From a virus, in the IMG/VR virus record IMGVR_UViG_3300034782_000041, positions 74,407 to 138,406 of that record: a stretch of 64,000 nt of DNA; one strand, 5' to 3'. Each line of letters opens with the position of its first letter. Position 1 is the stretch's first letter. Shown piece by piece: positions 20,443 to 62,383 of the stretch. Under the pieces are notes generated by a model that did not search any database, was not told the origin of the DNA, and worked only from the letters and a program-made list of their open reading frames with translations. Made by a program: the position numbers and the translations under genes.

Positions 20443-20454
20443 GCCCCTCGGGGC
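20443..20454 (-). promoter_or_regulatory. GCCCCTCGGGGC start-associated palindromic motif
   Basis: Minus strand reads GCCCCGAGGGGC-gaac-GGAGGA-ccaaa-ATG (GHKL ATPase gene). Confidence 0.5.
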
Positions 20455-20468
20455 CATGCTGACTGACG

Positions 20469-20861
20469 TCAGCGACTCCAATTGATCCGCACTTTGCGTG
20501 CCCGTGCCTCGCGCGCGGCGATTACGGGGCTCACATACTTTTTGCAGCAGGCATCACAACAACCTACTGTTGCCCCGTTCACAGGCCCCCACCAGTCACA
20601 CAAGCGGCGGTCGCAGGGATACCCATTTAGGAGGGTCCCCTGGCTCCCCAGACGCTTCGCAGCCAACAATAGTGCGCGCTGGTGAAGCGCAGATAGACGC
20701 CTCGCAACGAGAGACCGGGGAGAGTGAGAGTGCTTCTTCTTTGTCAGCTCACACGCTAGCCCCTCGGCGCAGCAAAGCGCCATGAAACCAGCAACTATTG
20801 CCCAGACGTCTGTCCAGTAGGTCGTAGCGTCGTCTACGCGTTGTGGTTTGGTGGGGCTCAT
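20469..20861 (-). CDS. hypothetical Cys-rich protein
   Basis: 130-aa ORF. Confidence 0.4.
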   Translation of the reverse strand: MSPTKPQRVDDATTYWTDVWAIVAGFMALCCAEGLACELTKKKHSHSPRSLVARRLSALHQRALLLAAKRLGSQGTLLNGYPCDRRLCDWWGPVNGATVGCCDACCKKYVSPVIAAREARARKVRINWSR

Positions 20862-20891
20862 GGTCTACCTAACGGCTACGAAGCCGTGAAC

Positions 20892-21116
20892 CTAGAGCCC
20901 CAGCTCGGCGCAGACTTCGGGAGCCGGGTTACAGCACGCGCAGTCCGCACAGTGCCGCAGGTAGAGCACCTGCTTGGAGTCGCAGTCCTCGACCACGACG
21001 CAGTAGGTGCCCTGGTGAGTGCGGGCGTAGGCCAGAGCGTCGGCCCAGCTGTCGGTAGTTATGCCGTGCTGGAAGTGGGCGCTCGCGGCCACAGTCTTGA
21101 ATCGCTCAGTCGTCAT
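20892..21116 (-). CDS. hypothetical small Cys-rich protein
   Basis: 74-aa ORF; GCCCCTCGGGGC motif and GGAGA RBS upstream. Confidence 0.4.
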   Translation of the reverse strand: MTTERFKTVAASAHFQHGITTDSWADALAYARTHQGTYCVVVEDCDSKQVLYLRHCADCACCNPAPEVCAELGL

Positions 21117-21134
21117 TGTCTTCTTGTCTCCGTT

Positions 21135-21146
21135 TGCCCCTCGGGG
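21135..21146 (-). promoter_or_regulatory. GCCCCTCGGGGC start-associated palindromic motif
   Basis: Followed on minus strand by aaac-GGAGA…ATG of 20892-21116. Confidence 0.5.
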
Positions 21147-21235
21147 CCGTCCTCATAAAGTCAGACGTGTGGACGTGCCAGATATTCGCAGCTGCGATCA
21201 AAAATAAACCCGTGCTGTTTTGAGTAGTTAGACTG

Positions 21236-21790
21236 TTAGACTGCAAGTAGGTTCATGATCACGTGGTTTGGGGCGTGGCCGATTCGCAGCGCTGCCAGCA
21301 ACGCATCCTGGCGATCTCGGTCCGAGACGGCCAACCGCAGCATTCGTCGGCGCTCGTCGATGGGTGCCGGCTGCTGTGCGATTCGCTCCGCCCATGCCAG
21401 CACCCATTGCTCGGGGCAGCCGACGTAGTGATAGTCAGCCGGATACTCGTCAGGGTCGTCCGGGTACACACCGCGGCTGACCGCATGAGTGCATGCTACG
21501 CGTGCCAACCCGAGCTGTCGCGGTAGCTGCCAGCGAGACTCCTGCCGAACGTAGCCAGCTGCAAGCAGTGTCTCAGCACGTGCCTCGATACGTAGACGCT
21601 CGAACGCGTAATGGAGTACCTTGTCGCCGCGTGCAACATGCTCTTCGAGATGTGTGATCATCTCAGCGGCGGTCGCCGCACAGAAATCATCGAAATCTGC
21701 TACCAGGCCGCAGTTACAACATTCGAGCCTGTTATCAAGCGTGCCGAACACGTACACGTCAGAGTGCGCTCCCCAGCGACAGTAGCTCAT
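21236..21790 (-). CDS. hypothetical protein
   Basis: 184-aa ORF; its start lies in copy 1 of a triplicated 28-bp unit. Confidence 0.5.
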   Translation of the reverse strand: MSYCRWGAHSDVYVFGTLDNRLECCNCGLVADFDDFCAATAAEMITHLEEHVARGDKVLHYAFERLRIEARAETLLAAGYVRQESRWQLPRQLGLARVACTHAVSRGVYPDDPDEYPADYHYVGCPEQWVLAWAERIAQQPAPIDERRRMLRLAVSDRDRQDALLAALRIGHAPNHVIMNLLAV

Positions 21791-21865
21791 CGGCCTTTCC
21801 TGCGCTTCCGTAGCTCATCGGCCTTTCCTGCGCTTCCGTAGCTCATCGGCCTTTCCTGCGCTTCC
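21782..21865. repeat. perfect 3 x 28-bp tandem repeat (GTAGCTCATCGGCCTTTCCTGCGCTTCC) spanning a gene junction
   Basis: Three identical units at 21782-21809, 21810-21837, 21838-21865; each carries RBS-like AGGAAAGG plus an ATGA start/stop overlap. Confidence 0.85.
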
Positions 21866-22856: not shown

Positions 22857-23319
22857 TGCATCCCCCCTGACGCGGTATTACGCAGCAGATCCGTCGTCGT
22901 CGCCGTTGTCGTCTGCGCAAGCTGCCTTGTCGTTTGCGCGGCGGAGCTTGCGTGCGCCTGTTTTTGCTTTGTGGCGGGTGGTGCGGCGGCTACCGCCGGT
23001 TCCGGTCATTTCGGTTTTGATGCGTGCGCGTGCCATGATCATTTCCTTTAGCAAAGTGAAGAAGAGCGACCAGCGCCGGACTAACGTTTCGGGGAATCGA
23101 ACCCGTCCTCGCCTGTAGGAAACTCACAAGCTACAGGCTCACGAATGACCAATCCGTGGCGTTCCAGGCACCCCGGTGTGGTCAGCACCGTTCCTCCCTT
23201 CCCGCAGCCGCCAGGCGGTTGAACACTACTGGTCGCTCCTCTCCAGAAATCCTCAAAGCCCCTCGGGGCACACAGGTAAAGACGGCTTGACTGCACGTGT
23301 ATTCAAGTCCTTTTGCGAT

Positions 23320-23871
23320 TTACCCCTCGGGGTGGTGGTCAGCGCAGCGGCCCTGACCCATGGCGCACCCTAGCAGATAGAGCGTCTCACCACCAGCATC
23401 TTCGGGATCAGCGCACGCGCCTGCGAGCTGTGCCTCGACTTGATCGTAGAAGTCCCGCGCGTTGACGCTGAAACCACGTCCACTGCGGATCTCGTTGAGC
23501 TGGTAGCTTGCCGCAGGCCCCGCACCGAGCACCTCAACGATGAAGTCAAAAATCGCGTCTGCGATTCTTCGGTTGAGTGTCCAGTACTCGAACACCGTGT
23601 AGCCTCGGTGGCTCCGGGCACGGATCCAGCCTTTCTTCATCGCGGCGACCAGCACTCGCTCGCGGCGGTCCTCAGCGCTCTCACCACGCTTCATCCTGAC
23701 CTGGATTTCGGACAAGCCATACGTTGACGGATCTTCGAGGATCGCGTCCAGGTGCTCGTAGACGGGCTCCCAGCGCCCGCTCCGCGAATGAATCCAGAAG
23801 CCTTCTCCCATCGGCATCTCAGACCTCCTCAAGTCGATTGCGTAGCTCCGCCTCGCCAAACTCTGGCTCAT
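23320..23871 (-). CDS. hypothetical protein
   Basis: 183-aa ORF. Confidence 0.45.
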   Translation of the reverse strand: MSQSLARRSYAIDLRRSEMPMGEGFWIHSRSGRWEPVYEHLDAILEDPSTYGLSEIQVRMKRGESAEDRRERVLVAAMKKGWIRARSHRGYTVFEYWTLNRRIADAIFDFIVEVLGAGPAASYQLNEIRSGRGFSVNARDFYDQVEAQLAGACADPEDAGGETLYLLGCAMGQGRCADHHPEG

Positions 23872-24142: not shown

Positions 24143-24184
24143 TGCGTGTCTCCGTGTTTGGCCCGCTGCGCGTCGCCCTTCCGC

Positions 24185-24689: not shown

Positions 24690-24707
24690 CCTCTACCTAC
24701 TTTACCC

Positions 24708-26393: not shown

Positions 26394-27128
26394 CTACTCT
26401 AGATCGAGGGTGAGCTGTCGGGGTAGCGGTAGATGTTCCTCCGCGTAGTTCTTCGCGAATGCTAGCAGCGCCCTCGGCGCGGCAGCTAGCGCTTCTACTG
26501 CCTGGCGGAACTCCGAATCGCGGCCGATCCGTTTTAGGAGCGCACGCTTGTGTTTGTAGGGCACGGACGTGGGCAGTTCGAGGATCGTCCGGGCCAGCGG
26601 CTCGATCCACAATGTACGTTTGCATTCACTCTTGCATGGGATGGTGACGACGTTGTAGTCGAGCGCTGCATCTCGTACGGCAGCGAGCTGTTGGAGGTGA
26701 GACGCTTGTACGAGACCGCGAGCCTCCAACGCATCCTCCTCGCGGAGAGCCTGATGGTACGCGCACACGTCTTGGCCGCTACGAAACGTGTCGCGCGTAC
26801 CATAGCCGTAGGAGGGGTAAGCGTGGTCTTTATGATACTCACCACACGTCTCACACCGTGTCGCGTCGAAGTCGTACACGACAGTAAGCTGAGCCGTTCC
26901 ATAACCACCTATTAGCTGGCACAGCTGTTCCGCGTGGCGCAGTGTGGTGAGCGAGGGTAGGCGGTCGTCGTGGAGAACTTCGACGTGCGCATGGCCTCGT
27001 CGCCATGCGATGGCCATTTGGTAGCTGTAGAAGTATTGACCGTCGGTCGAGTAGCGACCTTTCGCGCTCTTGTACGTGCGCGCCTCGCCTTTGAGAAATT
27101 CCTCTACGGTCCTGGTGAATGGCTGCAT
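26394..27128 (-). CDS. hypothetical protein
   Basis: 244-aa ORF; GCCCCTCGGGGC plus GAGGAGA upstream of ATG. Confidence 0.5.
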   Translation of the reverse strand: MQPFTRTVEEFLKGEARTYKSAKGRYSTDGQYFYSYQMAIAWRRGHAHVEVLHDDRLPSLTTLRHAEQLCQLIGGYGTAQLTVVYDFDATRCETCGEYHKDHAYPSYGYGTRDTFRSGQDVCAYHQALREEDALEARGLVQASHLQQLAAVRDAALDYNVVTIPCKSECKRTLWIEPLARTILELPTSVPYKHKRALLKRIGRDSEFRQAVEALAAAPRALLAFAKNYAEEHLPLPRQLTLDLE

Positions 27129-27141: not shown

Positions 27142-27153
27142 GCCCCTCGGGGC
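27142..27153 (-). promoter_or_regulatory. GCCCCTCGGGGC start-associated palindromic motif
   Basis: Minus strand GCCCCGAGGGGC-GAGGAGA-acatcg-ATG (26394-27128). Confidence 0.5.
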
Positions 27154-28261: not shown

Positions 28262-29155
28262 TCACGGAGCTACAGTAGCAACGTACTGCCAGTCGTTGCG
28301 GCACCCAGGTGGCGTGCCGGGCGGCTGCCCTGCGGGAAAACAAATCGTCCAGCCGATCACACGGGACTCTCCTACGAGCTGTGTGTCCGAGACTTGTTCG
28401 GCTGTGTGTGCAGCAAATCGGATCGTGGATGGAAGCCACGGACACGCGCCATTGGAAAACGGCCGAAGGTACGCTTCCTCGACGTCCCACTCGAACTCCC
28501 ATCCAACAAATAGCTCCGCGTCGAAGTACTTGCTGCTGCTACTACCTGGCTTCGAGAAGACCATATCGATATTCTCGTAACCGTGGTCGATAACGGTCAG
28601 CTCCGTATAGTCACGGAAGTCGAAAATTCCGTTCGCCGGAATCGGGTCTCCCGCGCAGTTGCCAGTGTAAGTCCAGACCACGTCGAAGTGCTCGGGGAGT
28701 GGATTCCAGGGCTCTGGCGGCGGTACGTACGCGTCTGGCAGCGGTACGTACGCGTCTGACGGCGGTACTGCATCTGGAAGCGCAATAGCGTCCGCCGGAG
28801 GAACATACGCATCTGGTGAAGCATATGCATCCGGTGAAGCATACGCATCCGGTGAAGCATACGCATCCGGTAGTGGAGCAGCATCCGGTGGCAGTACTGC
28901 ATCCGGCGGCACGTCGGCATCCGGCGACAACACAGCATCCACTGCTGCGTCTACGATGAATAGTGCGTCTGACAATACGATAGTCGCGTCAACATCCGCG
29001 GTCGCGTCAACATCCGCGTCGTCTGTACTGTCCGCGTCGTCTGTGCCAGCGTCTACAAATGCCGCGTCCACATCCGTAGCAAGTGTGTCCGTACTGCACG
29101 CACAGACAGTGCAAATCGTACTACAGATAGCAAACCGCATATCAAACCTCCGCAT
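28262..29155 (-). CDS. secreted/lipoprotein-like repeat protein with (PDAYAS)n repeats
   Basis: N-terminal hydrophobic signal with Cys cluster; 18-bp repeats at ~28790-28880; Asp/Ala-rich N-region. Confidence 0.5.
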   Translation of the reverse strand: MRRFDMRFAICSTICTVCACSTDTLATDVDAAFVDAGTDDADSTDDADVDATADVDATIVLSDALFIVDAAVDAVLSPDADVPPDAVLPPDAAPLPDAYASPDAYASPDAYASPDAYVPPADAIALPDAVPPSDAYVPLPDAYVPPPEPWNPLPEHFDVVWTYTGNCAGDPIPANGIFDFRDYTELTVIDHGYENIDMVFSKPGSSSSKYFDAELFVGWEFEWDVEEAYLRPFSNGACPWLPSTIRFAAHTAEQVSDTQLVGESRVIGWTICFPAGQPPGTPPGCRNDWQYVATVAP

Positions 29156-29167: not shown

Positions 29168-29401
29168 TTAGTCTTTCGGCTTCACTGTAATGAGTACTGA
29201 TTCTTCAGCAAGAGGGCACCAGTCGGGTCGCTGGGAGAATGGCTTGTCCTCTTGGGTCACCTTCTTGTTCTCGTGCTCGAACTTCGGGTGGAGGCAGTAG
29301 AAGGGTTTCGGATGCGTGAACCGCTGCTCGGGAGTGTGGATACGCAGGTAGCTGCACAGACAGTCATCGCAGCAGGTGGTGTAGTCGATGACCGTTTTCA
29401 T
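29168..29401 (-). CDS. hypothetical Cys-rich small protein
   Basis: 77-aa ORF; GCCCCTCGGGGC upstream. Confidence 0.4.
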   Translation of the reverse strand: MKTVIDYTTCCDDCLCSYLRIHTPEQRFTHPKPFYCLHPKFEHENKKVTQEDKPFSQRPDWCPLAEESVLITVKPKD

Positions 29402-29412: not shown

Positions 29413-29424
29413 TGCCCCTCGGGG
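29413..29424 (-). promoter_or_regulatory. GCCCCTCGGGGC start-associated palindromic motif
   Basis: Upstream of the ATG of 29168-29401. Confidence 0.5.
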
Positions 29425-29490
29425 CCTTTCGTGTTCGACGCGGTGTGCTGCTGTGTTATTCACCAGCGTAACCCGTTGAATACTTACCGC

Positions 29491-31157: not shown

Positions 31158-31336
31158 CGATTAGGCTCCCTAGCGTTGCGCCCACCTAGTGAGCTGTCGA
31201 AGCCGGTTGCGTACTGCGAGCAGTCGCGCAAGAGTCTCCAGGTCATCGTCCGCGGCCACAGAAAGCAGCGCGATTAGCGCGTTCGCTTCGTGAATATCGA
31301 GGTCCAATGCTACGGATTTCATCGTTGATCCTTTTT

Positions 31337-31348
31337 GCCCCTCGGGGC
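31337..31348 (-). promoter_or_regulatory. GCCCCTCGGGGC motif inside repeated ~55-bp upstream block (copy 1)
   Basis: Block catcgttgatcctttt-g-cccctcggggccgttcgatcacttcggtggacagtt. Confidence 0.5.
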
Positions 31349-31377
31349 CGTTCGATCACTTCGGTGGACAGTTTGTA

Positions 31378-31599
31378 CTACTCCTCGTGGCAGAAGTCGT
31401 AGAGGACAGCCGAGCTATCTGATTTGGTGAGCGGCTCAACGTCGAGGTCTTCACGCTCCAGCTTGCAGTTCGGGTCGTTTGGATCGGGCGCGCTGCGTGC
31501 CAGCGCAACCGCTTCAGCGGGCGACGCTGCGTACACGATAGCAACGCCTGGTAGGTGCGGCGTGCGGTAGGTGACGACGTACAGGATGTTATGTTTCAT
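31378..31599 (-). CDS. hypothetical small protein
   Basis: 73-aa ORF preceded by a conserved ~55-bp upstream block containing GCCCCTCGGGGC. Confidence 0.4.
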   Translation of the reverse strand: MKHNILYVVTYRTPHLPGVAIVYAASPAEAVALARSAPDPNDPNCKLEREDLDVEPLTKSDSSAVLYDFCHEE

Positions 31600-31613
31600 C
31601 GTTGATCCTTTTC

Positions 31614-31625
31614 ACCCCTCGGGGC
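31614..31625 (-). promoter_or_regulatory. ACCCCTCGGGGC motif inside repeated ~55-bp upstream block (copy 2)
   Basis: Near-identical copy of the 31318-31375 block. Confidence 0.5.
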
Positions 31626-31632
31626 CGTTCGA

Positions 31633-31872
31633 TCACTTCGGTGGACAGTTATCTGCTACTTCGCGGTCACGCTTCTCTTTGTACGCGTCGATCAGCGTCT
31701 GGGATTTGGTCAGGTAGTCTACTTGTGTGAGCGTCCACTCACGGATCGCGAGTGTCACAACGAGACGCACCTGTAGCTCGTCACTCACGGACACGTTCTT
31801 GAGCACGTCATGCAGGAGGGTATCGAGTGCTTTGTGCACACGTACTTTGAGCTTGGTTGTGGCGTCGTTCAT
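31633..31872 (-). CDS. hypothetical small protein
   Basis: 79-aa ORF preceded by the second copy of the ~55-bp upstream block. Confidence 0.4.
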   Translation of the reverse strand: MNDATTKLKVRVHKALDTLLHDVLKNVSVSDELQVRLVVTLAIREWTLTQVDYLTKSQTLIDAYKEKRDREVADNCPPK

Positions 31873-32033: not shown

Positions 32034-33196
32034 CGCGCATCCTTTAGTTTGCCGAGCGTGACGAAGAGCTGTACGACGGCTGAGGCTTCTCGATCAGCTG
32101 CACGCTTGTGGGTCTTCAACCGCTCATAGAGACAATCCGCTGCGCGGCAACCGTATGCGTCAACAGTGTCACGTATCAGGGCGGCCAGTTGATCGAGGAT
32201 GATGAATGGGCCCTCGACGCGCGTGTAGTAGCCACGGCCGGCACGGCCCCGCTTCCCGTTGTCGTAGGCCTCGCGCAGCTCGGGGAAGCGCTGACGCCAT
32301 TCACGGGCTGTGTCGTCGAGTCCGAGGGGAGCTTCGATGGGCGACGGGATCGTGAAGGTCACGCGGCCCGGCGTGGTCTCCTTGGCACGCGACTTCGACG
32401 GCGCGGCCTTGATGCGTGTCTCGGTCAGACCGAAGTCAGCAAACACGCCGTCGGCGACAGCCCGGTTGTAGCGTCGGCTCAGCTCGGCGTCGATGTGTGG
32501 TGCTGTTGCTCGGCTACCGCCGCTTTCGCGCTGGTTGCGCTCGCGGGCCGCAGCGCGGATGCCTCCCATGTACTGCTCGCCGAGCAGCTCAGCGCTGGCC
32601 TCGAACAGGACGCCGTAGAAGCGCGACCCGTGCGGCTTGCGCTTGCTGCTTTCCAGGTCGTAGTTGAAATAGGTCTTGCGCTCGTAGCGCTCGAAGTGAG
32701 CGATGTGTGCCAGCTCGTGGACCAGCGTCTCGATGGCGCCACCGACGTCGCTGCCGGCAGTCATCGTGATGCGGCCGCTGAGGTAGTGCGCATGTCCTGG
32801 ACTGAAGGAGCGCGTCTTCGAGTGGCGCAGCTCTAGCTTCGCGTGCTTGACCTCTTTGCGCCAGCACTTGAGCCGCTTCGCGTGCTCGAAGATCAAGTGG
32901 AGCGCGTTTGGCCACTCGCGCATCCTCGCGGCCTCGCGCTCCTGCTGCTTCTGCGCCTTGGTCTTCCGAGCTGCGGTCTTCGCAGCGCGCTTGCGTTCCA
33001 GAGCCGGCGCCACGCGCTCGACCAGGCGACCGCTCGCCTCAGAGCAGGGAAGGCAGTAGCGCACGATGGAATCCTTGGGTGGACGAGTCGAGCCGAGCAC
33101 ACCCGGGTGCTCGCCGTTCGGGCACTCCCACCGCACTCGTTTTGTCTTTGGCTTCATGCGAGATCCTCCGCACGGTTCCAGCGGCTCTTCAGCCAC
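32030..33196 (-). CDS. SprT-like zinc metalloprotease-domain protein
   Basis: …GAIETLVHELAHIAHFERY HExxH in SprT-like context; N-terminal CxxC zinc-ribbon-like CLPC; basic linker. Confidence 0.55.
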   Translation of the reverse strand: MAEEPLEPCGGSRMKPKTKRVRWECPNGEHPGVLGSTRPPKDSIVRYCLPCSEASGRLVERVAPALERKRAAKTAARKTKAQKQQEREAARMREWPNALHLIFEHAKRLKCWRKEVKHAKLELRHSKTRSFSPGHAHYLSGRITMTAGSDVGGAIETLVHELAHIAHFERYERKTYFNYDLESSKRKPHGSRFYGVLFEASAELLGEQYMGGIRAAARERNQRESGGSRATAPHIDAELSRRYNRAVADGVFADFGLTETRIKAAPSKSRAKETTPGRVTFTIPSPIEAPLGLDDTAREWRQRFPELREAYDNGKRGRAGRGYYTRVEGPFIILDQLAALIRDTVDAYGCRAADCLYERLKTHKRAADREASAVVQLFVTLGKLKDAR

Positions 33197-33405
33197 TGCT
33201 GACCGAGCGGCGTGAGGGTAGCCACGTACCCGTTGCCTTTACGGCGTACGTGCACCAGGCCACGGTCTCGGAGGCTCTCAGCCGTCCGGTGCCAGGCGCT
33301 ACAGCGCCGCCCAGCGTCCCGCTGTCCGTCCGCCGGAGGTACGCTTGTCGAGCACGCCTCCAGCACTAACAGGAATCTCTCTTGCGGCTTGCTGAGCTTC
33401 ATCAT
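33154..33405 (-). CDS. hypothetical small protein, possible regulator
   Basis: 83-aa ORF divergent from the RHH gene. Confidence 0.4.
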   Translation of the reverse strand: MMKLSKPQERFLLVLEACSTSVPPADGQRDAGRRCSAWHRTAESLRDRGLVHVRRKGNGYVATLTPLGQQWLKSRWNRAEDLA

Positions 33406-33546
33406 CCTATCCCATTCGACCCCTCGGGGTCCGTAGTGGCGCTCTTAGCGCCTCCACAACTTGGACGCTGGCACCCTCCGAATCTTCAAGAAAATCGCAT
33501 CCGCGATCAATTTTACATAACCCTTGAACATTGCTAGCATATTTTC

Positions 33547-33804
33547 ATGGCGTCACACCACATCAACGTGCTTCTTGACGACGAGCTACACACGTACCTG
33601 GTACAGCATGCGCAGACCCGCGGCATATCCCTGTCTGCTGCGCTCCGCGATCTACTACGCCACGGTCTCGGCATCGTCGCGTCAGGCGAGGACGCAGGAT
33701 GGCGAGAGGGCTACACCGCGGCGTGGGCAGCGGTTCGCCGCGCTGCGCTGGACGCCGTTGAGCAAGTCTCACCCGTCTATCCTGACGATACATTTCACTC
33801 GTAA
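33547..33804 (+). CDS. ribbon-helix-helix (CopG/Arc-like) DNA-binding protein, apparently leaderless
   Basis: INVLLDDELHTYLVQHAQTRGISLSAALRDLL beta-strand plus two helices; ATG directly after a promoter-like TTGAAC…TAGCAT with no SD; paralogue at 62471. Confidence 0.6.
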   Translation: MASHHINVLLDDELHTYLVQHAQTRGISLSAALRDLLRHGLGIVASGEDAGWREGYTAAWAAVRRAALDAVEQVSPVYPDDTFHS

Positions 33805-34898: not shown

Positions 34899-34950
34899 AT
34901 TTACCTATAATATCTTAATATTATCAAGTACTTAGCGCATATCTCGCTCT
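34885..34950. promoter_or_regulatory. AT-rich segment upstream of int with inverted repeat ATAATAT-CTTA-ATATTAT; candidate attP core and/or int promoter
   Basis: ~65 bp mostly A/T (by eye) in an otherwise GC-rich genome, immediately 5' of the integrase start. Confidence 0.35.
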
Positions 34951-40748: not shown

Positions 40749-41142
40749 GTCGAAATCCTATTACATTGGCCTGACGGTGCTCAGATTGTCTGGTAGCCAA
40801 CTGAGCACGCTGGTAGTCGGGATCGAATTGGCAGCGTAGCCGATCAATTTCACTTTGTAGCCGCTGCATCAACTCAGGTGGTACGCCGGGCGGCGCGTCA
40901 CGCTCCATTGCCTCCAACTTGCGTAGGTGCCGTCGTGCCCTTTGACGCTCCACGAAGTACGTCCACTGGACTTCGAGCCACAGACGTCCGGTCCACCAGG
41001 GCATCGTGAACACAGCCCACCAACTCGTCGGTGTAAGCCCGCGACCATCACGCTGACCCGCGCCGACCCAATACGACCAACACCACAGAATGAGTGCGTA
41101 CCAGAAAATCGCGGCTGCGATTATGACGACACAGACTACCAC
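40714..41142 (-). CDS. hypothetical membrane protein (start uncertain, possibly GTG)
   Basis: Hydrophobic VVVCVVIIAAAIFWYALILWCWSYWV region; the ORF-track 5' extension overlaps the upstream gene. Confidence 0.3.
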   Translation of the reverse strand: MVVCVVIIAAAIFWYALILWCWSYWVGAGQRDGRGLTPTSWWAVFTMPWWTGRLWLEVQWTYFVERQRARRHLRKLEAMERDAPPGVPPELMQRLQSEIDRLRCQFDPDYQRAQLATRQSEHRQANVIGFRHGHSRDRHRED

Positions 41143-57370: not shown

Positions 57371-57741
57371 GGTGTGCTCCCGTCCACGGCTTGTTGTCTT
57401 GTAGCCAGTTCGGCGAAGTCACAGTTCTGTGTGTGAAACGCGGCCACTTTGAGCGCACGCAGGAGTATCTCGACCTCGTCCGGGTCGTGCTGTTTGCACA
57501 CCCTCTCCACGTCTCCCTTCAAGTCCATCAGCAGGAACTGCACCCCTAGCAGCTGACGCCACGCCAACTCATAGACAGCGTTCGCGTCAGCGCGTTCATG
57601 TGCCTCACTACGCAGCTTCTGTTGGAGCTGGACGTTTTGTTGATACACGAGGACCACCCCGACCGCGCTTACTGATGCGATGGCAATTGTGGTAGCCAAC
57701 GCAGCGATTACCAACTTGCGATCAGTCATGCACGCCTCCAA
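57367..57741 (-). CDS. hypothetical membrane protein
   Basis: N-terminal TM LVIAALATTIAIASVSAVGVVLV. Confidence 0.4.
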   Translation of the reverse strand: MEACMTDRKLVIAALATTIAIASVSAVGVVLVYQQNVQLQQKLRSEAHERADANAVYELAWRQLLGVQFLLMDLKGDVERVCKQHDPDEVEILLRALKVAAFHTQNCDFAELATRQQAVDGSTP

Positions 57742-58451
57742 TGCAGCTTCCGTTGACCGTCTGGCTGCGTACGGATCACAGCGTTCGCAGCTCGCACCGA
57801 GAATCCGCGACTTTGTCGTACGGCTACGACCTCGATTGCGTTCGGCTGTTCGGCGTCCAACACGTCGAGGACAAAAACCCCGTCGATGTTCGCCAAGCCT
57901 CTATCGAAGACCTGGAACAGCCAATCACGGCGGACACAGACTCGTAGGTGGCTGTTCGTGCCTGACCACGTATGCTTGGCGTGCCAGACCTTTTCACTGC
58001 CCCCTTCCGCGCTCACGGTCGGGCCTACAGTCACGTCTATGGCGTGTTCACCGCCGACCCAGCTACTCTGCGCTCGCCTGTACTCCGCGCGGTGTTGGAG
58101 AACATACATCGCAGCAGCGCGTGTTCGACCAACCAACCGTTCGTGGAGAGTCCGCGGTGCGGGCATATACGCGATAGCTTGCCGATCCAGAGCACGCTGA
58201 AACGCCTGCTGACACGGTTGGCGCAATGGGTCAGGCAGCCGACGATAATCTCCTACACGCCAGGCAGCAGCTACCTCACCGCAACGAACCAGGTTGCTAC
58301 CAATCGTTCTGGCAGCCTTCGCTGCGTCGATCAGGGTAGCTACAGACTCCTCGTGATCACACAACGTCAACCGACCAGATTTCTGCAACCGAATGTAGTG
58401 CACCTTGTGCTGGCATCGAACACGGACTTCAACTTCCTCAAATGGCTTCAT
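57726..58451 (-). CDS. hypothetical protein
   Basis: 241-aa ORF; CCCCTCGGGG motif 9 nt upstream of ATG. Confidence 0.45.
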   Translation of the reverse strand: MKPFEEVEVRVRCQHKVHYIRLQKSGRLTLCDHEESVATLIDAAKAARTIGSNLVRCGEVAAAWRVGDYRRLPDPLRQPCQQAFQRALDRQAIAYMPAPRTLHERLVGRTRAAAMYVLQHRAEYRRAQSSWVGGEHAIDVTVGPTVSAEGGSEKVWHAKHTWSGTNSHLRVCVRRDWLFQVFDRGLANIDGVFVLDVLDAEQPNAIEVVAVRQSRGFSVRAANAVIRTQPDGQRKLHWRRA

Positions 58452-58473
58452 GGCACGCTCCCCTCGGGGACGA

Positions 58474-59373
58474 CTAACCTTTCATCGCATCTTGCAACGC
58501 GGCGGCAACCTCATCAGGGCTTACCAGATCGGTGCCGATACTGCCCTCCTCAAACCATGTGATAGCGTTCTCGAACGGTTCGAGATCGACGCGTGCACCT
58601 GCTTCAGCAGGCTCCATACCATCTTTCTCGATGGCTTCGATGATCTCAGCTCGGACATGCGGCACGTGCTGCAACGCGATCTTCACGGCTTCTCCGGCGG
58701 TCCCGACTGCAAGGCGGTCTAGGTTCTTGCAACGTAGCAACGGCGCGTGTAGCGCGTTCTGTTGAATCACCTTGCCGTCGTCATCGAGGACGCGTTTGAC
58801 TTGCCCTGTACGAAACGCTGCAATCACGTCCGAAAGCACGTCACAAATCGTACGCGCTATCTCAGCCGCGACAAGCGGTGTCGCCACATCGATCTTTCCG
58901 GCGATGATCCCGATATGGGCGCGGCGTGCCGAACCTACAGCCTTTGCTGCGGCATTGAGCACACGTTCCTCGCGTTGTAGCTCGGCGATCTCCTTTTCCA
59001 GAGCTTTGAGTGAGACGTCGTCCGCGTACCACCAGTTGAATGCGCTGTGTGCACAGTGCTTTTTGAAAGCGTAGTCCGCCTTCTTTTTCAGCGCGTCGAG
59101 CGCGGCCGCGATCTCGACATGATCCACGGTCTTGACTGTATGCAGCGAGATCTGCACACCCTGGTTCTCGTTGATTCTCAGCTCCTCACCGTACTCGCGG
59201 TCGTAACTGATTCCGCCAGTCACTTTGCTCGTCGAGACCACGAGATACCCGGGCTGGATCTTGATCGGTGGCGCGCCCCGCGAAGGTGCGCGCTCTACGT
59301 GTTGTAGCTTCTTGGCCTTGTTGGCTTTGCCTGCTTTGTTGCCCTTCTTGTTGGTGCGTGCTTTGTAACCCAT
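58474..59373 (-). CDS. hypothetical protein with Lys-rich N-terminus
   Basis: 299-aa ORF; CCCCTCGGGG motif 10 nt upstream of ATG. Confidence 0.5.
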   Translation of the reverse strand: MGYKARTNKKGNKAGKANKAKKLQHVERAPSRGAPPIKIQPGYLVVSTSKVTGGISYDREYGEELRINENQGVQISLHTVKTVDHVEIAAALDALKKKADYAFKKHCAHSAFNWWYADDVSLKALEKEIAELQREERVLNAAAKAVGSARRAHIGIIAGKIDVATPLVAAEIARTICDVLSDVIAAFRTGQVKRVLDDDGKVIQQNALHAPLLRCKNLDRLAVGTAGEAVKIALQHVPHVRAEIIEAIEKDGMEPAEAGARVDLEPFENAITWFEEGSIGTDLVSPDEVAAALQDAMKG

Positions 59374-59397
59374 GTCTATTCTCCCCTCGGGGACGTT

Positions 59398-60630
59398 TCA
59401 GATTTCTATCTCGATGACATCAGCGAACTCAGGAATTTCTTTTCTGCTCGCGTAACCGATCAAGGCGACGGTCAGCTTACGGCAGTTGCGCGGCCGTTCA
59501 GGCCACGTCTCACACGGCATACCGTCTGTCAGATGGATCGCGTAGTCGAACTTCTTGCTGGCGCTCTCGATGGCCGCGTACGCAGGCGTGTATAGCGTTC
59601 CGCCGCGACCGATCAGAGTCTTGGCGAGAGCAGCTCGTCGTGTGCCGGGACGGATCCAGTCGGCGAAGTGCACCTCCGCGTCGTGTGTGACCAGAAATAT
59701 GGCCACACCCGTCGCACGGCTGATTGCTTCCACCTCGCTGAGTGCTTGTTCGAGGTCTTCGTCAGAGACAGAACCGCTGGTGTCTACCGCCACAGCGACG
59801 AGTGCCTTGGACGTGATTCCACCTGGGAGAATGAAGTCGCCCGCGAACGACCGCCGGTTGCGTCGCTGCCAACTAACGTCGTCGTTGCCGCGTTCAGCGA
59901 TTGCACGTGCACATGCGTTGCGTAGCACCGCAGTCCACGCCACTTTGGATGGTGGAACGCGGAGCACGCGTGCAAGCAGATCTCCAGAGCAGTCGCCTGC
60001 CGAGCGCGCGTTCTGCTCAGCGCTGTGAGCAAGCTGCCGCCAGGTCCGTGCTGACTCAGCTGTGGAGGGAAACGCCGCGCCGTCTTCTGGTGCTTCACCC
60101 TCGGCGCCATCGTCATCACCATCGCCATCACCACCCTGAGGTGGAAGCACGCCACAACCACCGGTTGCTCCGGGCATCTTGCCCAGCGAGGCTTGACCGT
60201 CATCGCCTGGCTGTTCTTCCTCGACCTCGTAGAGTTCTTCTGTTGTGTACTCGTTATGCGCCGGGTCGGTGGGAAGTAACCCCATGGGCGGCATTTCCAG
60301 CCCTATTTGCACGAGACCGAAGTTGATTGCGCGATCCGCGGCACGATTCCAGCGGAACGGCTTGCGGTTCATTCGCCGCCCAAAGTGAAACAGCAGCAGA
60401 TGCATGATCTCGTGCGCCAGAACGAAGGTAAGCTGCTTGTCCGAGAGCTGATCGCAGAAACTCGGATTGAGGTACACGCATCCACGTACGTCAGCACAAG
60501 CAGTCTGGATGTGGATGGACACACGCAGGTAGATCTTCGCACCGGGTAGAGCAAAGAATGGGTGTCGCCAACCAAGGCCCAACAAAAGCCCTCGGGCACG
60601 CTGGATGAGCTGTCTGGTCGCTGATGTCAT
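59398..60630 (-). CDS. putative metallopeptidase (HExxH) plus VWA-like domain protein (DUF2201-type partner of MoxR ATPases)
   Basis: N-terminal …LTFVLAHEIMHLLLFHF…; acidic Gly/Asp linker; C-terminal LVAVAVDTSGSVSDEDL VWA/MIDAS-like. Confidence 0.7.
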   Translation of the reverse strand: MTSATRQLIQRARGLLLGLGWRHPFFALPGAKIYLRVSIHIQTACADVRGCVYLNPSFCDQLSDKQLTFVLAHEIMHLLLFHFGRRMNRKPFRWNRAADRAINFGLVQIGLEMPPMGLLPTDPAHNEYTTEELYEVEEEQPGDDGQASLGKMPGATGGCGVLPPQGGDGDGDDDGAEGEAPEDGAAFPSTAESARTWRQLAHSAEQNARSAGDCSGDLLARVLRVPPSKVAWTAVLRNACARAIAERGNDDVSWQRRNRRSFAGDFILPGGITSKALVAVAVDTSGSVSDEDLEQALSEVEAISRATGVAIFLVTHDAEVHFADWIRPGTRRAALAKTLIGRGGTLYTPAYAAIESASKKFDYAIHLTDGMPCETWPERPRNCRKLTVALIGYASRKEIPEFADVIEIEI

Positions 60631-61727
60631 GCTGCCCCACGCTGCACTCTTGCCAGCAGTTGGATTTGGGCTTTGCGCCCGACGGTGGCGAACTTAGAGG
60701 CCTGCGGCACCTTGTTCATTAGGAACCGTCCGCAGGCAGCTCCAATCTCTTTCCGCAGCCGGCCCGCGTAGGTCCACGCGGCCCAGACATCGGTCTGCGC
60801 GACTCGGGCCAGGAGACCCAGGGCAGCGATCTGCTGATCGAGCGATTCGGGCAGCCGTGCCTTGGTTGGGTTGGCCGCGATCTCATCGATGGATGGCAGG
60901 TGCAGACGGAGCTTGCGAATTGCCAGGTACGCGCCAGCAGCGGACGGTCCTACGGCACCTGTCAGGAGCGCGTAGCCAACGTCATCCTCTTTACCGCCAT
61001 GCGCTGCCAGGCAGGAGAGGCCGATCTCCCAGCCGCGAGGGGATGCCCACGGCTCGCCCTGATCAACGCTTGCACGCGGCGGATCATAAACGAGCAGATC
61101 AGTAGCGTGGGAAAGCGTCGCGGCGAAGTCAGCGAACTCCGCAACGCATGCGGCCTGGAAGGCGTCCTCGTCGAGCACTACGGGAGAAGCGTGAACCGCC
61201 TCACCGTTGAAGTAGGACTGCACTTCCGCGAATGAGGGCTGATAGCGAAGCAGCACGATCCGGTTGATGAATGCCGCCGACAGCTCGATGCCGCCCGGTG
61301 CCTGTTCCGGCGGGTTGCACGCGAGTACTACGGGGCTGCCCGGGTGCAACGGCGTGCCGCCTGCGTTGCGTTCCATCGCAACACGTAGCATCGGGCCCTC
61401 GACCGATTTCGGCATCGCGGTCGCCTCGTCGATGAATAAGACACCCGCAGCGTCCACGACGGCCCGAATCTCGGGAAACAGCTCGCGCAGCACCCGACCC
61501 GACTGTAGATCGCGGTATGGCAGCCCCGCGACGTCTGTCGGGTCCATGTTGGACGCGATCAGATCGTGGCAAGGCAACCCAATGGCGGCCGCAGCATCAC
61601 GCACGAGGGCCGTTTTGCCAACGCCTGGCGAACCTAGCAGCAGTGCGGTTCGCCTCGCGCGAAGGGCAGCGGCCACCGCGGCGGCTGCTTGTGTGTAGTT
61701 CAACACGGGAATGAGATACTTGGACAA
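60627..61727 (-). CDS. MoxR-like AAA+ ATPase
   Basis: LLLGSPGVGKT Walker A; VLFIDEA Walker B; TTG start 6 nt after a GGAGGA RBS that follows GCCCCTCGGGGC. Confidence 0.8.
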   Translation of the reverse strand: MSKYLIPVLNYTQAAAAVAAALRARRTALLLGSPGVGKTALVRDAAAAIGLPCHDLIASNMDPTDVAGLPYRDLQSGRVLRELFPEIRAVVDAAGVLFIDEATAMPKSVEGPMLRVAMERNAGGTPLHPGSPVVLACNPPEQAPGGIELSAAFINRIVLLRYQPSFAEVQSYFNGEAVHASPVVLDEDAFQAACVAEFADFAATLSHATDLLVYDPPRASVDQGEPWASPRGWEIGLSCLAAHGGKEDDVGYALLTGAVGPSAAGAYLAIRKLRLHLPSIDEIAANPTKARLPESLDQQIAALGLLARVAQTDVWAAWTYAGRLRKEIGAACGRFLMNKVPQASKFATVGRKAQIQLLARVQRGAA

Positions 61728-61739
61728 GTTTCCTCCATC

Positions 61740-61751
61740 GCCCCTCGGGGC
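61740..61751 (-). promoter_or_regulatory. GCCCCTCGGGGC start-associated palindromic motif
   Basis: Minus strand GCCCCGAGGGGC-gat-GGAGGA-aac-TTG (MoxR gene). Confidence 0.5.
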
Positions 61752-61757
61752 CGCTTG

Positions 61758-61964
61758 TTATCGCACACTGCTCTGACGCTCGAAAATCTCCAGTGCAGCC
61801 GCCTCATCAGCCAGCTCGGCGATGCGCCGGCTCGCGATAGCCTCGACGTAGAAGTCGCCTGGGCCGCTCCGGCCGTCCTTGGGGCGCCGATTGCGGTCAC
61901 GCAGCCAGGCGAAGAAGTGCCTTGCGCAGTGCCAGCAGGTGCTATCGCAGTGTTGCCGTGGCAT
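61758..61964 (-). CDS. hypothetical small protein
   Basis: 68-aa ORF. Confidence 0.3.
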   Translation of the reverse strand: MPRQHCDSTCWHCARHFFAWLRDRNRRPKDGRSGPGDFYVEAIASRRIAELADEAAALEIFERQSSVR

Positions 61965-62146
61965 CGTTTATTATCTTCTTCAGCACCAAACTCTCACGAG
62001 TTCGAGGTTGACCCGTTCGAGCATGGATCTGATTGCCTGTAGCTCCTCTTGGTCGTTGTGACCGAGTTCGTCCTCTGCGGTGTTCTCGATGTACTGAGTG
62101 AGGGCCGTGGACAGTGCCTCCAGCTCGATCCTGTTCCTGGTCTTCA

Positions 62147-62356
62147 TCACTTGTCCTCTTCATCGTCGAGCGCAAGGGAGTCGAGCGCCGCCTTGTTCAG
62201 GTCGTGCGCGGTCTTGTGGACCCACTGGTGCTTCCGGCAGAAACCGTTGGCGACAGCCCTACGCCGACACTGCCTGCCTCCCGTAAACGTTGCGCAGCAA
62301 CGCTGTACGCCCTGCGCCTTCAGCTCCTTCCAGGTCTTCGGCTCGGCTTTGCTCAT
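62147..62356 (-). CDS. hypothetical small Cys/His protein
   Basis: 69-aa ORF; GCCCCTCGGGGC then GAGGAG RBS upstream. Confidence 0.4.
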   Translation of the reverse strand: MSKAEPKTWKELKAQGVQRCCATFTGGRQCRRRAVANGFCRKHQWVHKTAHDLNKAALDSLALDDEEDK

Positions 62357-62371
62357 CTGCCACTCCTCGTC

Positions 62372-62383
62372 GCCCCTCGGGGC
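62372..62383 (-). promoter_or_regulatory. GCCCCTCGGGGC start-associated palindromic motif
   Basis: Minus strand GCCCCGAGGGGC-gac-GAGGAG-tggcag-ATG (62147-62356). Confidence 0.5.

What the first reader, a model, noticed from the sequence alone, without database searches (positions are those of the whole stretch)
20443..62383. Genome-wide 12-nt palindromic motif GCCCCTCGGGGC positioned immediately upstream of the RBS or start of at least 12 minus-strand genes
Exact or near-exact copies occur at 20443, 21135, 23258, 23322, 27142, 29413, 31337, 31615, 33420, 58460, 59383, 61740 and 62372. In the transcribed (minus) orientation they read GCCCCGAGGGGC. This is followed after 3-4 nt by a GGAGG-type SD and then the start codon, or, in two cases (58460 and 59383), the motif's own GAGGGG supplies the SD. 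This resembles the start-associated sequences described in some mycobacteriophage clusters. It could be a binding site for a phage translational or transcriptional regulator, an RNA-processing hairpin (4-5 bp stem with CUCG/CGAG tetraloop) or a translational enhancer. It is too short and lacks a U-tract, so it is not an intrinsic terminator.
Basis: seen in the sequence. Interest (0 to 1): 0.7.

Follow-up and report, generated by a model that had tools for sequence, protein, structure and literature searches.

The report
Conserved RNA hairpin beside phage start sites
A 12-base hairpin-forming sequence sits just upstream of the ribosome-binding site of about one gene in six in this uncultivated large phage and its relatives. 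It is conserved with compensating base changes, so it is very probably a functional mRNA signal controlling expression of a gene subset, though its partner and exact role are unknown.

Summary
The core CCCCGAGGGG (minus-strand reading) occurs 13 times, always in one orientation, where shuffles expect none. Thirteen of the 15 copies lie 8-20 nt upstream of a convincing start codon.

Five related metagenomic phages were compared; one sits on a 244-kb contig. Their DUF2201 proteins are only 51-70% identical, yet the same core sits at orthologous intergenic spots while the flanks diverge. The outer stem pair covaries (G-C, U-A, A-U, G-U), the third pair switches C-G to U-A, and the CGAG loop never changes.

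One copy lies about 17 nt downstream of a textbook extended -10 promoter. The motif is therefore in the 5' UTR and is neither a promoter nor a terminator.

Best reading: a strand-specific RNA hairpin next to the Shine-Dalgarno sequence, acting as a shared post-transcriptional operator. The trans-acting factor is unidentified.

The closest analogue is the start-associated sequences of Cluster K mycobacteriophages, whose function is also unknown. This motif is not a member of that family. I rate it a new variant of a known kind, of moderate interest.

Seen in passing: a compact Cas12-like gene with a CRISPR array, and a second conserved palindrome, GATCGC-N4-GCGATC, at promoter-like regions.

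The parts
62372..62383 (-). Hairpin GCCCCGAGGGGC. It is 16 nt from the core to the ATG of a 69-aa Arg-rich, DUF5763-like ORF (62147-62356), the first gene after a divergent promoter region.
   Evidence: Orthologous copies are in L124 8156 and L126 4495. A conserved TTG-17-TAnnnT block lies upstream.
61740..61751 (-). Hairpin GCCCCGAGGGGC. It is 13 nt from the core to the TTG start of the MoxR-type AAA ATPase gene (60627-61727), with a GGAGG box in between.
   Evidence: It is conserved at the orthologous site in L124, L128 and L209, and occurs as the compensatory variant GCUCCGAGGAGC in L126.
59382..59393 (-). Hairpin UCCCCGAGGGGA fused to the SD (GGGGAG gives GGAG, 7 nt from the ATG) of a 299-aa gene (58474-59373). 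It lies 4 nt after the stop codon of the DUF2201 gene.
   Evidence: The U-A closing pair is conserved at the orthologous site in L124, L128, L209 and L126/L318, although the stop-to-hairpin distance varies from 0 to 48 nt.
58459..58470 (-). Hairpin UCCCCGAGGGGA fused to the SD, 8 nt from the core to the ATG of a 241-aa gene (57726-58451).
   Evidence: There is an orthologous copy in L124 12005, and L128 3935 holds a copy at the corresponding junction.
33419..33430 (-). Hairpin ACCCCGAGGGGU, 14 nt upstream of the ATG of an 83-aa ORF (33154-33405). It lies about 75 nt downstream of a GATCGC-N4-GCGAT palindrome.
31614..31625 (-). Hairpin GCCCCGAGGGGU with a G-U closing pair, which pairs only in the mRNA sense. 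It is 15 nt upstream of the ATG of a 73-aa ORF (31378-31599) and is part of a 57-nt duplicated cassette (31594-31650).
31337..31348 (-). Hairpin GCCCCGAGGGGC, 15 nt upstream of the ATG of a 50-aa ORF (31170-31322). This is the second copy of the 57-nt cassette (31317-31373), in front of an unrelated ORF.
29414..29425 (-). Hairpin GCCCCGAGGGGC, 13 nt upstream of the ATG of a 77-aa ORF (29168-29401), at the 3' end of an 89-nt gap.
27142..27153 (-). Hairpin GCCCCGAGGGGC followed directly by GAGGAG and, 14 nt from the core, the ATG of a 244-aa gene (26394-27128).
23322..23333 (-). Hairpin ACCCCGAGGGGU overlapping the last codons (P-E-G) and abutting the stop codon of the 183-aa gene 23320-23871. 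There is no convincing gene start after it.
23258..23269 (-). Hairpin GCCCCGAGGGGC, 64 nt downstream of the previous copy, in a stretch of about 460 nt (22857-23320) with poor coding potential.
21136..21147 (-). Hairpin GCCCCGAGGGGC, 20 nt upstream of the ATG of a 74-aa ORF (20892-21116). It lies about 45 nt downstream of a GATCGCAGCTGCGA palindrome.
20443..20454 (-). Hairpin GCCCCGAGGGGC, then GGAGG, with 16 nt from the core to the ATG of a 440-aa gene (19105-20427, phrog_6077).
18010..18021 (-). Variant hairpin GCUCCGAGGAGC (third pair C-G changed to U-A), 9 nt upstream of the ATG of an 89-aa ORF (17732-18001).
16540..16551 (-). Variant hairpin (G)GCUCCGAGGAGC(C) with a 5-bp stem, 18 nt upstream of the ATG of the 527-aa TnpB/Cas12-like gene (14939-16522).

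Best explanation
The motif is a cis-acting RNA element. It is a 4-bp hairpin (N-C-Y-C / G-R-G-N') closed by an invariant CGAG tetraloop. It is transcribed as part of the 5' UTR or intercistronic spacer and always lies next to, or is fused with, the Shine-Dalgarno sequence of the downstream gene.

It most likely works as a shared post-transcriptional operator. A trans-acting factor would read the invariant loop on a stem of fixed geometry at the entrance of the ribosome-binding site, and so tune translation initiation for roughly 15% of the genes as one group. mRNA fate could follow as a consequence. The factor could be a phage- or host-encoded RNA-binding protein, or the 30S subunit itself.

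In the U-A class of sites the 3' arm is itself the SD (GGGGAG), so the hairpin occludes the SD and would need to be opened.

Shown here: existence, orientation, position, deep conservation, base-pair covariation, and location downstream of a promoter.

Inferred: that the RNA rather than the DNA is the active form, that the step affected is translation, and that a specific factor exists.
For: 1. Strand specificity. 13/13 core copies and 2/2 variants have the sense orientation of the downstream gene. In L124 the one reversed copy precedes the one reversed gene.

2. Position. 30 of 31 copies in six genomes are followed by the start of an ORF of at least 40 aa at 3-26 nt. The hairpin stays close to the SD whether the upstream stop codon is 0 or more than 100 nt away.

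3. Deep conservation. The core is an island of identity in intergenic DNA that is otherwise about 50% identical and variable in length. This holds across phages whose DUF2201 proteins are 51-70% identical.

4. Covariation.
- The outer pair is G-C 18, U-A 8, A-U 2, G-U 1 among 29 distinct rows, and 30 of 30 sites are paired.
- The third pair changes C-G to U-A three times, once at the orthologous MoxR site of L126.
- 100% of cells are paired, and 0 of 500 shuffles reach the observed score.
- No TIR-associated copy has a one-sided change. The single-mismatch copies all lie inside coding regions.
- U-A occurs where the 3' A is mostly part of a GGAG SD, so the 5' base follows the 3' base.

5. The loop is specific. 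CGAG is the only recurring loop among CCC-N4-GGG words (13 of 21).

6. It is transcribed. In L124 the copy lies about 17 nt downstream of the start predicted from an extended -10 promoter, TGGTATAAT. Promoter-proximal orthologues share a TTG-17-TAnnnT block 20-25 nt upstream.

7. Energetics. The RNA hairpin has a free energy of -4.4 to -7.7 kcal/mol and appears in every MFE fold. The DNA form has only -1.4 to -2.4 kcal/mol.

8. The neighbouring RHH repressor-like gene is also conserved in L210, which lacks the motif. That gene more plausibly pairs with the separate GATCGC-N4-GCGATC palindrome.
Against: - There are no expression data, so whether the RNA or the DNA is the active form rests on inference.
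- No candidate RNA-binding protein was found. The genes downstream of the motif and most window genes have no informative family. The Arg-rich 69-aa protein is not conserved in relatives.
- The hairpin is short and is not thermodynamically exceptional in its context (z-scores about 0).
- The third-pair count was made on copies that I selected for complementarity at that pair. Only the outer pair is an unbiased test.
- Many copies may share ancestry, for example the duplicated 57-nt cassette, so the cells counted are not independent events.
- The conserved loop-plus-3'-arm GAGGGG could be constrained simply because it resembles an SD.
- Two copies (23322, 23258) are not next to a clear start.
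Confidence: 0.45

Rival explanations
1. RNA processing or stability element. The hairpin would mark or protect mRNA ends. It could be a recognition site for an endoribonuclease that cuts polycistronic RNA just 5' of each ribosome-binding site, as T7 RNase III sites and the T4 RegB regulon do. Or it could be a protective 5' or 3' hairpin, like the T4 intercistronic C(UUCG)G hairpins.
For: The RNA-level evidence is the same as for the best explanation. The motif sits in intercistronic spacers of co-directional genes. Promoter-proximal copies would lie only about 8-17 nt from the predicted 5' end. The loop and 3' arm contain GAGG, and T4 RegB targets GGAG in translation initiation regions, where secondary structure modulates cleavage (PMC3014915).
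Against: A pure 3'-end protector should track the upstream stop codon. Here the distance to the stop varies from 0 to over 100 nt while the distance to the SD and start is held. Generic stabilising hairpins do not need an invariant loop. No nuclease candidate was found.
Confidence: 0.15
2. DNA operator. The 12-bp near-palindrome would bind a dimeric phage repressor and block RNA polymerase at many points. That would resemble the stoperators of mycobacteriophage L5, in a possibly temperate phage.
For: The sequence is a near-perfect palindrome in short intergenic regions. A tyrosine integrase, an RHH protein and an HTH_17/excisionase-like protein are encoded in the window. Copies downstream of promoters could act as roadblocks.
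Against: The non-palindromic centre GA is in the same orientation in 31 of 31 sites. Changes occur only as complementary double changes, and both versions coexist in one genome; a fixed protein specificity does not predict this. One site has G..T, which pairs only as RNA in the mRNA sense. The position is held relative to the SD and not merely somewhere in the gap. The RHH gene persists in a relative without the motif, and a different palindrome is the better operator candidate.
Confidence: 0.12
3. Loading site for a transcription elongation or antitermination factor. It would be read either as a nascent RNA hairpin (like lambda N with boxB) or as a hairpin in the non-template DNA strand of the transcription bubble (like ops with RfaH).
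For: It is strand-specific, with an invariant loop on a covarying short stem and a location in leaders downstream of promoters. It has a GCCC/GGGC stem like boxB (from my own knowledge of lambda nut sites). The first motif-preceded gene encodes a small arginine-rich protein.
Against: There are up to three copies in series within about 3.3 kb of one gene string (61740, 59382, 58459), which would be redundant for a processive factor. There is no conserved boxA-like flank. Close spacing to the SD and start is not required by this model. The Arg-rich protein is absent from relatives that keep the motif.
Confidence: 0.1
4. Mobile regulatory cassette or recombination scar. The repeat would spread with short ribosome-binding-site cassettes, like the PeSL cassettes of T4-type phages, and would persist mainly because it mediates or records gene shuffling.
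For: A 57-nt cassette (25 nt + hairpin + SD + ATGAAA) is duplicated in front of two unrelated small ORFs. Copies cluster among small ORFs of unknown function.
Against: Orthologous copies are kept at the same junctions over 51-100% protein identity while the flanks decay. Substitutions within the motif are compensatory. That is purifying selection on the structure, not neutral persistence.
Confidence: 0.07
5. Promoter for a phage-specific RNA polymerase, for example an N4-like hairpin promoter or a short T7-like promoter.
For: It is a repeated oriented motif just upstream of genes. Distant homologues of the neighbouring MoxR/DUF2201 pair occur in N4-like phages, whose virion RNA polymerase reads hairpin promoters (and my own knowledge).
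Against: There is no RNA polymerase gene in 64 kb. In some sites the motif is only 3-9 nt from the start codon and supplies the SD, so it must be in the RNA. One copy lies downstream of a canonical extended -10 promoter. Nothing is conserved beyond the 12 nt. The DNA hairpin is very weak.
Confidence: 0.04

Closest known systems
Start-associated sequences (SAS) of Cluster K mycobacteriophages (Pope et al. 2011, PMC3203893)
   Same: Both are short (12-13 nt) repeats present in about 10-20 copies. Both occur in one orientation only, immediately upstream of start codons, and are restricted to non-structural parts of the genome. Both are conserved across subgroups in front of unrelated genes, contain an SD-like core and have symmetric G/C outer parts. 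Function is unknown in both cases, and still untested for SAS in 2025 (PMC12699233).
   Different: The sequence is unrelated: GGGATAGGAGCCC is absent here. SAS occupies the RBS position 3-7 bp from the start. This motif mostly lies 5' of a separate SD, at a median of about 14-15 nt from the start. SAS has G-arm then C-arm with a 7-nt centre and no reported covariation. This motif has C-arm then G-arm, a tetraloop and clear covariation. The phage lineage differs: large uncultivated phages, host unknown.
Translational-operator hairpins bound by phage proteins (MS2/PP7 coat protein with the replicase operator; Mu Com with mom mRNA)
   Same: Each is a small hairpin with a sequence-specific loop and a stem that tolerates compensatory changes, placed at or next to the SD or start so that protein binding controls initiation. 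This comparison is from my own knowledge.
   Different: Those are single sites per genome. Here there are at least 15 sites forming a regulon. The loop sequence and stem differ, and no binding protein has been identified.
T4 RegA and RegB post-transcriptional regulons (PMC3014915)
   Same: One factor acts on the translation initiation regions of about 30 or more mRNAs of a temporal class. RegB targets an SD-like GGAG.
   Different: RegA and RegB sites are unstructured and A/U- or A-rich, and structure protects against RegB. This motif is a G+C-rich hairpin.
Stoperators of mycobacteriophage L5 and Cluster A
   Same: Many copies of a 13-bp site in short intergenic regions, in one orientation relative to transcription. 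This comparison is from my own knowledge, and the contrast is mentioned in PMC3203893.
   Different: Stoperators are asymmetric DNA sites for the repressor and show no base-pair covariation. They are not tied to the SD.
Lambda-type boxB (nut) hairpins and T4 intercistronic C(UUCG)G hairpins
   Same: These are short G+C stems (boxB is GCCCU/AGGGC) with a defined loop, in leaders or between cistrons of phage mRNAs. This comparison is from my own knowledge.
   Different: boxB has a GNRA-like pentaloop, an associated boxA and only 1-2 copies per genome. T4 UUCG hairpins are not tied to the next gene's SD. The CGAG loop is not a known extra-stable tetraloop.

Membership tests
Cluster K mycobacteriophage SAS | Matches the consensus 5'-GGGATAGGAGCCC with at most 2 mismatches, in many copies. 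| tested here: not met
   One search found one 2-mismatch hit, inside the RNR gene, where 0.91 is expected by chance.
Cluster K mycobacteriophage SAS | Located 3-7 bp upstream of the start codon, in the RBS position. | tested here: inconclusive
   The motif is always upstream and close (3-26 nt). Only the U-A class (about one third of sites) occupies the RBS position. The rest lie 1-5 nt 5' of a separate SD.
Cluster K mycobacteriophage SAS | One orientation relative to the downstream gene. | tested here: met
Cluster K mycobacteriophage SAS | Carried by Cluster K Mycobacterium phages. | tested here: not met
   There is no nucleotide match to any INPHARED phage. Protein relatives are distant and come from phages of Gram-negative hosts or metagenomes.
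Intrinsic (Rho-independent) terminator | G+C-rich stem of at least 5 pairs followed by a U-tract. | tested here: not met
   The stem is 4 bp (5 at two sites). The tails are purine-rich. None of the sites appears in the terminator scan of 20.0-35.5 kb.
L5-type stoperator / dimeric-repressor DNA operator | Sequence read as duplex DNA by a repressor, so no requirement for intra-strand complementarity. | tested here: not met
   Variation is exclusively complementary, with 100% paired cells and 0 of 500 shuffles reaching the observed score. Both variants coexist in one genome.
L5-type stoperator / dimeric-repressor DNA operator | A cognate repressor that binds the site. | not testable with these tools
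   The RHH gene does not co-vary with presence of the motif. Binding would need an EMSA.
Lambda-type nut site | boxB hairpin with a GNRA-like pentaloop, plus a conserved boxA a few nt upstream. | tested here: not met
   The loop is the tetraloop CGAG. The flanks beyond +/-1 nt are not conserved.
Sigma70-type or phage-RNAP promoter | Transcription starts downstream of the element, which is therefore not part of the mRNA leader. | tested here: inconclusive
   There are no RNA data. In some sites the motif supplies the SD 3-9 nt from the ATG. One copy lies downstream of an extended -10 promoter. Both points argue against a promoter.
Any Rfam family | Score at or above the gathering threshold. | tested here: not met
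   One search gave 0 matches in the whole window.
PeSL-type mobile regulatory cassette (T4-type phages) | Repeated promoter + stem-loop cassettes flanking shuffled small ORFs. | tested here: inconclusive
   There is one duplicated 57-nt cassette before unrelated ORFs. Most copies share only the 12-mer and have no associated promoter.

The most novel reading that the evidence does not exclude
A clade of large uncultivated phages may use a private translation-initiation code. A dedicated phage factor, either an RNA-binding protein or a phage-modified 30S subunit, would recognise a CGAG-tetraloop hairpin docked against the Shine-Dalgarno helix. It would switch about 15% of the genes on or off as one regulon. 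That would be the first hairpin-type 'start-associated' regulon and a new RNA-protein recognition pair.
Probability: 0.25. Interest if true: 0.75.

Novelty: new variant of a known kind. Interest (0 to 1): 0.55.

Why it matters
Repeated start-associated motifs in phages have been known since 2011, but their function is still unresolved. This example comes with something the mycobacteriophage SAS lacks: clear base-pair covariation and an invariant loop. That points to an RNA structure read by a specific factor and gives clean mutational predictions (break the stem, restore the stem, change the loop).

If confirmed, it would define a compact, portable 12-nt control element for a whole gene set in large phages. 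These phages also carry a miniature CRISPR-Cas system. It would also provide a handle for finding the regulator by phylogenetic profiling.

If the hairpin acts only in cis, as SD occlusion or insulation, it is still a neat case of a standardised ribosome-binding-site module in a natural genome.

Tried and rejected
- Megablast of 14 kb against INPHARED phages gave no match.
- Protein searches against phages gave only distant hits.
- A single-protein search of IMG/VR found nothing.
- IMG/VR scans for the 14-mer and for motif+GGAG returned more than 115 unrelated contigs, mostly with single and probably chance hits. Only 29 of 115 were followed by a plausible start. None shares proteins with the window, and a few hits are parts of longer terminator stems. 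These scans were not informative about the clade.
- Alignment-based scans gave only relatives at 41% identity or less, except L318. IMG/VR, JGI metagenomes and GTDB genomes were scanned. The IMG/VR relatives checked lack the motif, and no host genome or prophage was found.
- Rfam and tRNA scans were empty.
- A literature search for the sequence found only unrelated primers.
- The thermodynamic z-scores of the regions are unremarkable.
- Translational coupling was rejected as a general explanation, because the stop-to-hairpin distance varies from 0 to over 100 nt.
- The RHH protein was rejected as the partner, because it is conserved in L210, which lacks the motif.
- The 69-aa Arg-rich protein was rejected as the partner, because it is not conserved.
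- CsrA/RsmA-type recognition was rejected, because there is no GGA in the loop.
- Any link to the CRISPR repeat was rejected, because the sequences are unrelated.

Full report
**What the window is.** Nearly all genes are on the minus strand. The recognisable ones are:
- a class I/II-type ribonucleotide reductase
- a tyrosine integrase
- a MoxR-type AAA ATPase next to a DUF2201 VWA/metallopeptidase
- a thioredoxin
- an NT5C nucleotidase
- pentapeptide-repeat, FHA and FGE-sulfatase-like proteins
- RHH and HTH_17 regulators
- a 527-aa TnpB/Cas12-like protein

No structural gene beyond a weak small-terminase-family match, and no RNA polymerase gene, is recognisable in the 64 kb. There is no nucleotide match to any deposited phage. 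Identical genes occur on metagenomic contigs (Logan SRR11713591 and others; a JGI contig of at least 150 kb). A relative lies on a 243,706-bp groundwater contig. The window is therefore the accessory or early part of a large uncultivated phage of unknown host. No relative closer than 30% identity was found in GTDB genomes.

**The observation.** GCCCCTCGGGGC occurs 8 times where shuffles give 0.00. The 10-nt core CCCCTCGGGG occurs 13 times on the plus strand and never on the minus strand. On the coding (minus) strand it reads CCCCGAGGGG.

Scanning for any stem around a CGAG loop revealed two further copies with a compensatory variant, GCUCCGAGGAGC, at 16540-16551 and 18010-18021. Both lie just upstream of start codons.

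Thirteen of the 15 copies are followed within 8-20 nt of the core by the start of a convincing ORF, usually after a GGAGG, AGGAG or GGAG box. In the U...A class (58459, 59382) the 3' arm plus the next G forms the GGAG box itself, 6-7 nt from the ATG.

Two copies are exceptions. The copy at 23322 encodes the last three residues of the upstream gene and abuts its stop codon. The copy at 23258 lies 64 nt further on, in a stretch with poor coding statistics.

The copies are confined to 16.5-33.4 kb and 58.4-62.4 kb. They are absent from 0-16 kb, from 34-58 kb, and from the oppositely oriented module beyond the left end of the window (L480/L481).

**Comparative evidence.** I searched with the DUF2201 protein and fetched the DNA around homologues.
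- In relatives with 68-70% (L124, L128), 56% (L126/L127/L318) and 51% (L209, L398) protein identity and 53-65% G+C, the exact core recurs, always in the sense of the downstream gene.
- It recurs at orthologous junctions: before the MoxR gene, between DUF2201 and the next gene, and before the gene after that.
- Alignments of these junctions show the 12-mer as an island of identity. The surrounding spacers are otherwise about 50% identical and differ in length by up to about 48 nt.
- The distance from the upstream stop codon varies from 0 to over 100 nt, whereas the hairpin always sits close to the SD and start.
- In L124 the only reversed copy precedes the only reversed gene.
- Relatives at 50% identity or less (L399, L210 and 80 IMG/VR loci) lack the motif at these junctions.

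The motif is thus an innovation of one sub-clade.

**Structure.** I compiled 30 copies from five genomes; a 31st, from L398, was found later. The two innermost stem pairs and the four loop bases never vary.
- The outermost pair is G-C 18, U-A 9, A-U 2 and G-U 1. This pair was not used to select the copies.
- The next positions outward are mostly G-G or G-A and do not pair.
- The third pair is C-G, except for three U-A sites. One of these is the L126 orthologue of the MoxR site, which is C-G in four other genomes.
- The formal count gives 100% paired cells, 13 cells changed on both sides, 0 of 500 shuffles reaching the score, and collapse of pairing when the partner is slid.

One caveat applies. 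I kept only copies complementary at the third pair. The two excluded copies (L124 4445, L209 8350) lie inside coding regions and are not at gene starts.

U-A occurs where the 3' A is mostly part of a GGAG SD, so the 5' base follows the 3' base. CGAG is the only recurring loop among CCC-N4-GGG words (13 of 21). An invariant loop on a covarying stem is the usual signature of a hairpin read by a specific partner.

**RNA or DNA?** Several lines favour RNA.
- The asymmetric centre is in one orientation in 31 of 31 sites.
- The single wobble is G-U in the mRNA sense.
- Complementary double changes coexist with the main form in the same genome, which a duplex-reading protein of fixed specificity does not explain.
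- The RNA hairpin is moderately stable (-4.4 to -7.7 kcal/mol) and appears in every MFE fold. The DNA form is marginal (-1.4 to -2.4 kcal/mol).
- In L124 a copy lies about 17 nt downstream of the start predicted from an extended -10 promoter, TGGTATAAT.
- Four orthologous promoter-proximal copies share a TTG-17-TAnnnT block ending about 20-25 nt upstream.
- Some copies are 3-9 nt from the ATG and provide the only SD, so they must be in the mRNA.

The motif is not a terminator: it has a 4-bp stem and a purine-rich tail, and it is absent from the terminator scan.

**Mechanism.** The architecture is a small hairpin with a specific loop abutting or overlapping the SD, repeated before about 15% of genes of unrelated function. 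This is the architecture of a translational operator, multiplied into a regulon. I therefore favour a post-transcriptional operator read by an unidentified factor (confidence 0.45). In the U-A class, SD occlusion would be part of the mechanism.

I could not identify the factor. The neighbouring RHH gene is also present in L210, which lacks the motif. It more plausibly pairs with a different, more widely conserved palindrome. The Arg-rich 69-aa protein encoded after the first copy is not conserved.

The rivals are:
- an RNA processing or stability signal (0.15)
- a DNA operator of the stoperator type (0.12)
- a loading site for an elongation or antitermination factor (0.10)
- a mobile RBS cassette without its own function (0.07)
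- a phage-polymerase promoter (0.04)

The duplicated 57-nt cassette before two unrelated ORFs shows that such modules can spread by recombination. That does not explain the purifying selection and the compensatory changes.

**Comparison with known systems.** The closest analogue is the start-associated sequence of Cluster K mycobacteriophages. That is a 13-bp repeat in 11-19 copies, in one orientation, 3-7 bp from starts, only in the non-structural half and containing an SD core. Its function was unknown in 2011 and was still untested in 2025.

This motif works like that class by position, but it is not a member. The SAS consensus is absent, the sequence and lineage differ, and it mostly lies 5' of the SD. 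Unlike SAS, it shows hairpin covariation.

T4 RegA and RegB regulons act on many translation initiation regions, but on unstructured sites. boxB, the MS2/PP7 operators and Mu Com are single-site hairpins. No Rfam family matches, and the sequence is not described in the searchable literature.

**Verdict.** This is a real, conserved, structured start-associated RNA motif and a new variant of a known but unexplained kind. Interest is moderate (0.55). The evidence for function is strong, the mechanism is open, and the host is unknown, but the predictions are simple to test in reporters.

Noticed in passing
window 13634-14951 (- strand) and 14939-16522 (- strand): There is a CRISPR-like array directly downstream of a 527-aa TnpB/Cas12-like gene. 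It has six regular units of a 36-nt repeat, CCCGGAATGCTAGCTCGATGGCTACTCAATCGAGAC, with 35-39-nt spacers. Then comes a 110-aa ORF, followed by irregular or degenerate repeats that include a 55-nt tandem duplication. The protein matches Cas12f and CasPhi structures only weakly, at the zinc-ribbon/TNB domain (E about 0.02-0.7). No spacer matched any fetched locus. This is probably a phage-encoded compact type V system.
   Followed up: partly
window (- strand reading) 33506, 21197, 13255, 6942, 4014 (weaker copies at 41120, 23564); L120 997 and 5314; L124 3446/3467, 8004/8025, 16567; L209 751, 4991, 7089; L128 7815; L210 about 7940; L481 upstream of 8128 and 8578: A second conserved intergenic element is the palindrome GATCGC-N4-GCGATC. 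It is often embedded in TTGATCGC....GCGATCaTTGAtt...GTATATCCTGGCA, lies in the long intergenic regions, and looks like an operator overlapping a sigma70-type promoter. It is more widely conserved than the hairpin and co-occurs with the RHH gene, which makes that gene a candidate repressor.
   Followed up: partly
window 31317-31373 and 31594-31650 (- strand): A 57-nt cassette consists of 26 nt, the hairpin, AAAAGGA, a spacer and ATGAAA. It is duplicated almost exactly in front of two unrelated small ORFs (50 and 73 aa). In one copy it supplies the last codons and the stop of the upstream gene.
   Followed up: yes
window 22857-23320: A stretch of about 460 nt without a convincing ORF begins with two hairpin copies 64 nt apart (23322, 23258). 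It could be a non-coding RNA, a long leader or a decoy carrying two copies of the operator. This remains unexplained.
   Followed up: partly
L120 about 5360-5385; L124 about 3515-3535; L209 about 800-815: After an orthologous promoter-like block there is a 5'-UTR hairpin of the opposite polarity (GGGGGC-loop-GCCUCC, G-arm first). It is conserved in three genomes with a G-U change and is a different element from the finding.
   Followed up: no
window 21782-21865: A perfect 28-nt tandem repeat (3.0 copies; GGAAGCGCAGGAAAGGCCGATGAGCTAC on the - strand) lies at or just upstream of the start of the 184-aa ORF (21236-21790). Other short in-frame hexamer repeats occur at 8118-8301 and 17363-17418, and 18-nt repeats at 28804-28940.
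   Followed up: no
window 33795-34898 (- strand) and 34880-34930: A tyrosine integrase gene sits in the middle of this large-phage region. It is preceded by an unusually A+T-rich stretch, TTGATAATATTAAGATATTATAGGTAAATTT, which is promoter-like and possibly an attP arm. About 390 nt of non-coding DNA follows the gene. This hints at a temperate lifestyle.
   Followed up: no
L129 and L135 (IMG/VR relatives at 38-41% DUF2201 identity): These loci hold highly repeated words (GCGAACCTC 36 times; GTAGCAATGGCAG and CAGCGCATCGC about 21 times). They are probably CRISPR or other arrays near the MoxR/DUF2201 genes.
   Followed up: no
L212 7602 and 11223; L234 948; L217 2549 (unrelated IMG/VR contigs): A few phage contigs with no detectable protein similarity to this window also carry (G/U)CCCCGAGGGG(C/A) followed by an SD and a start codon. 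These are isolated cases that may be chance or convergent.
   Followed up: partly
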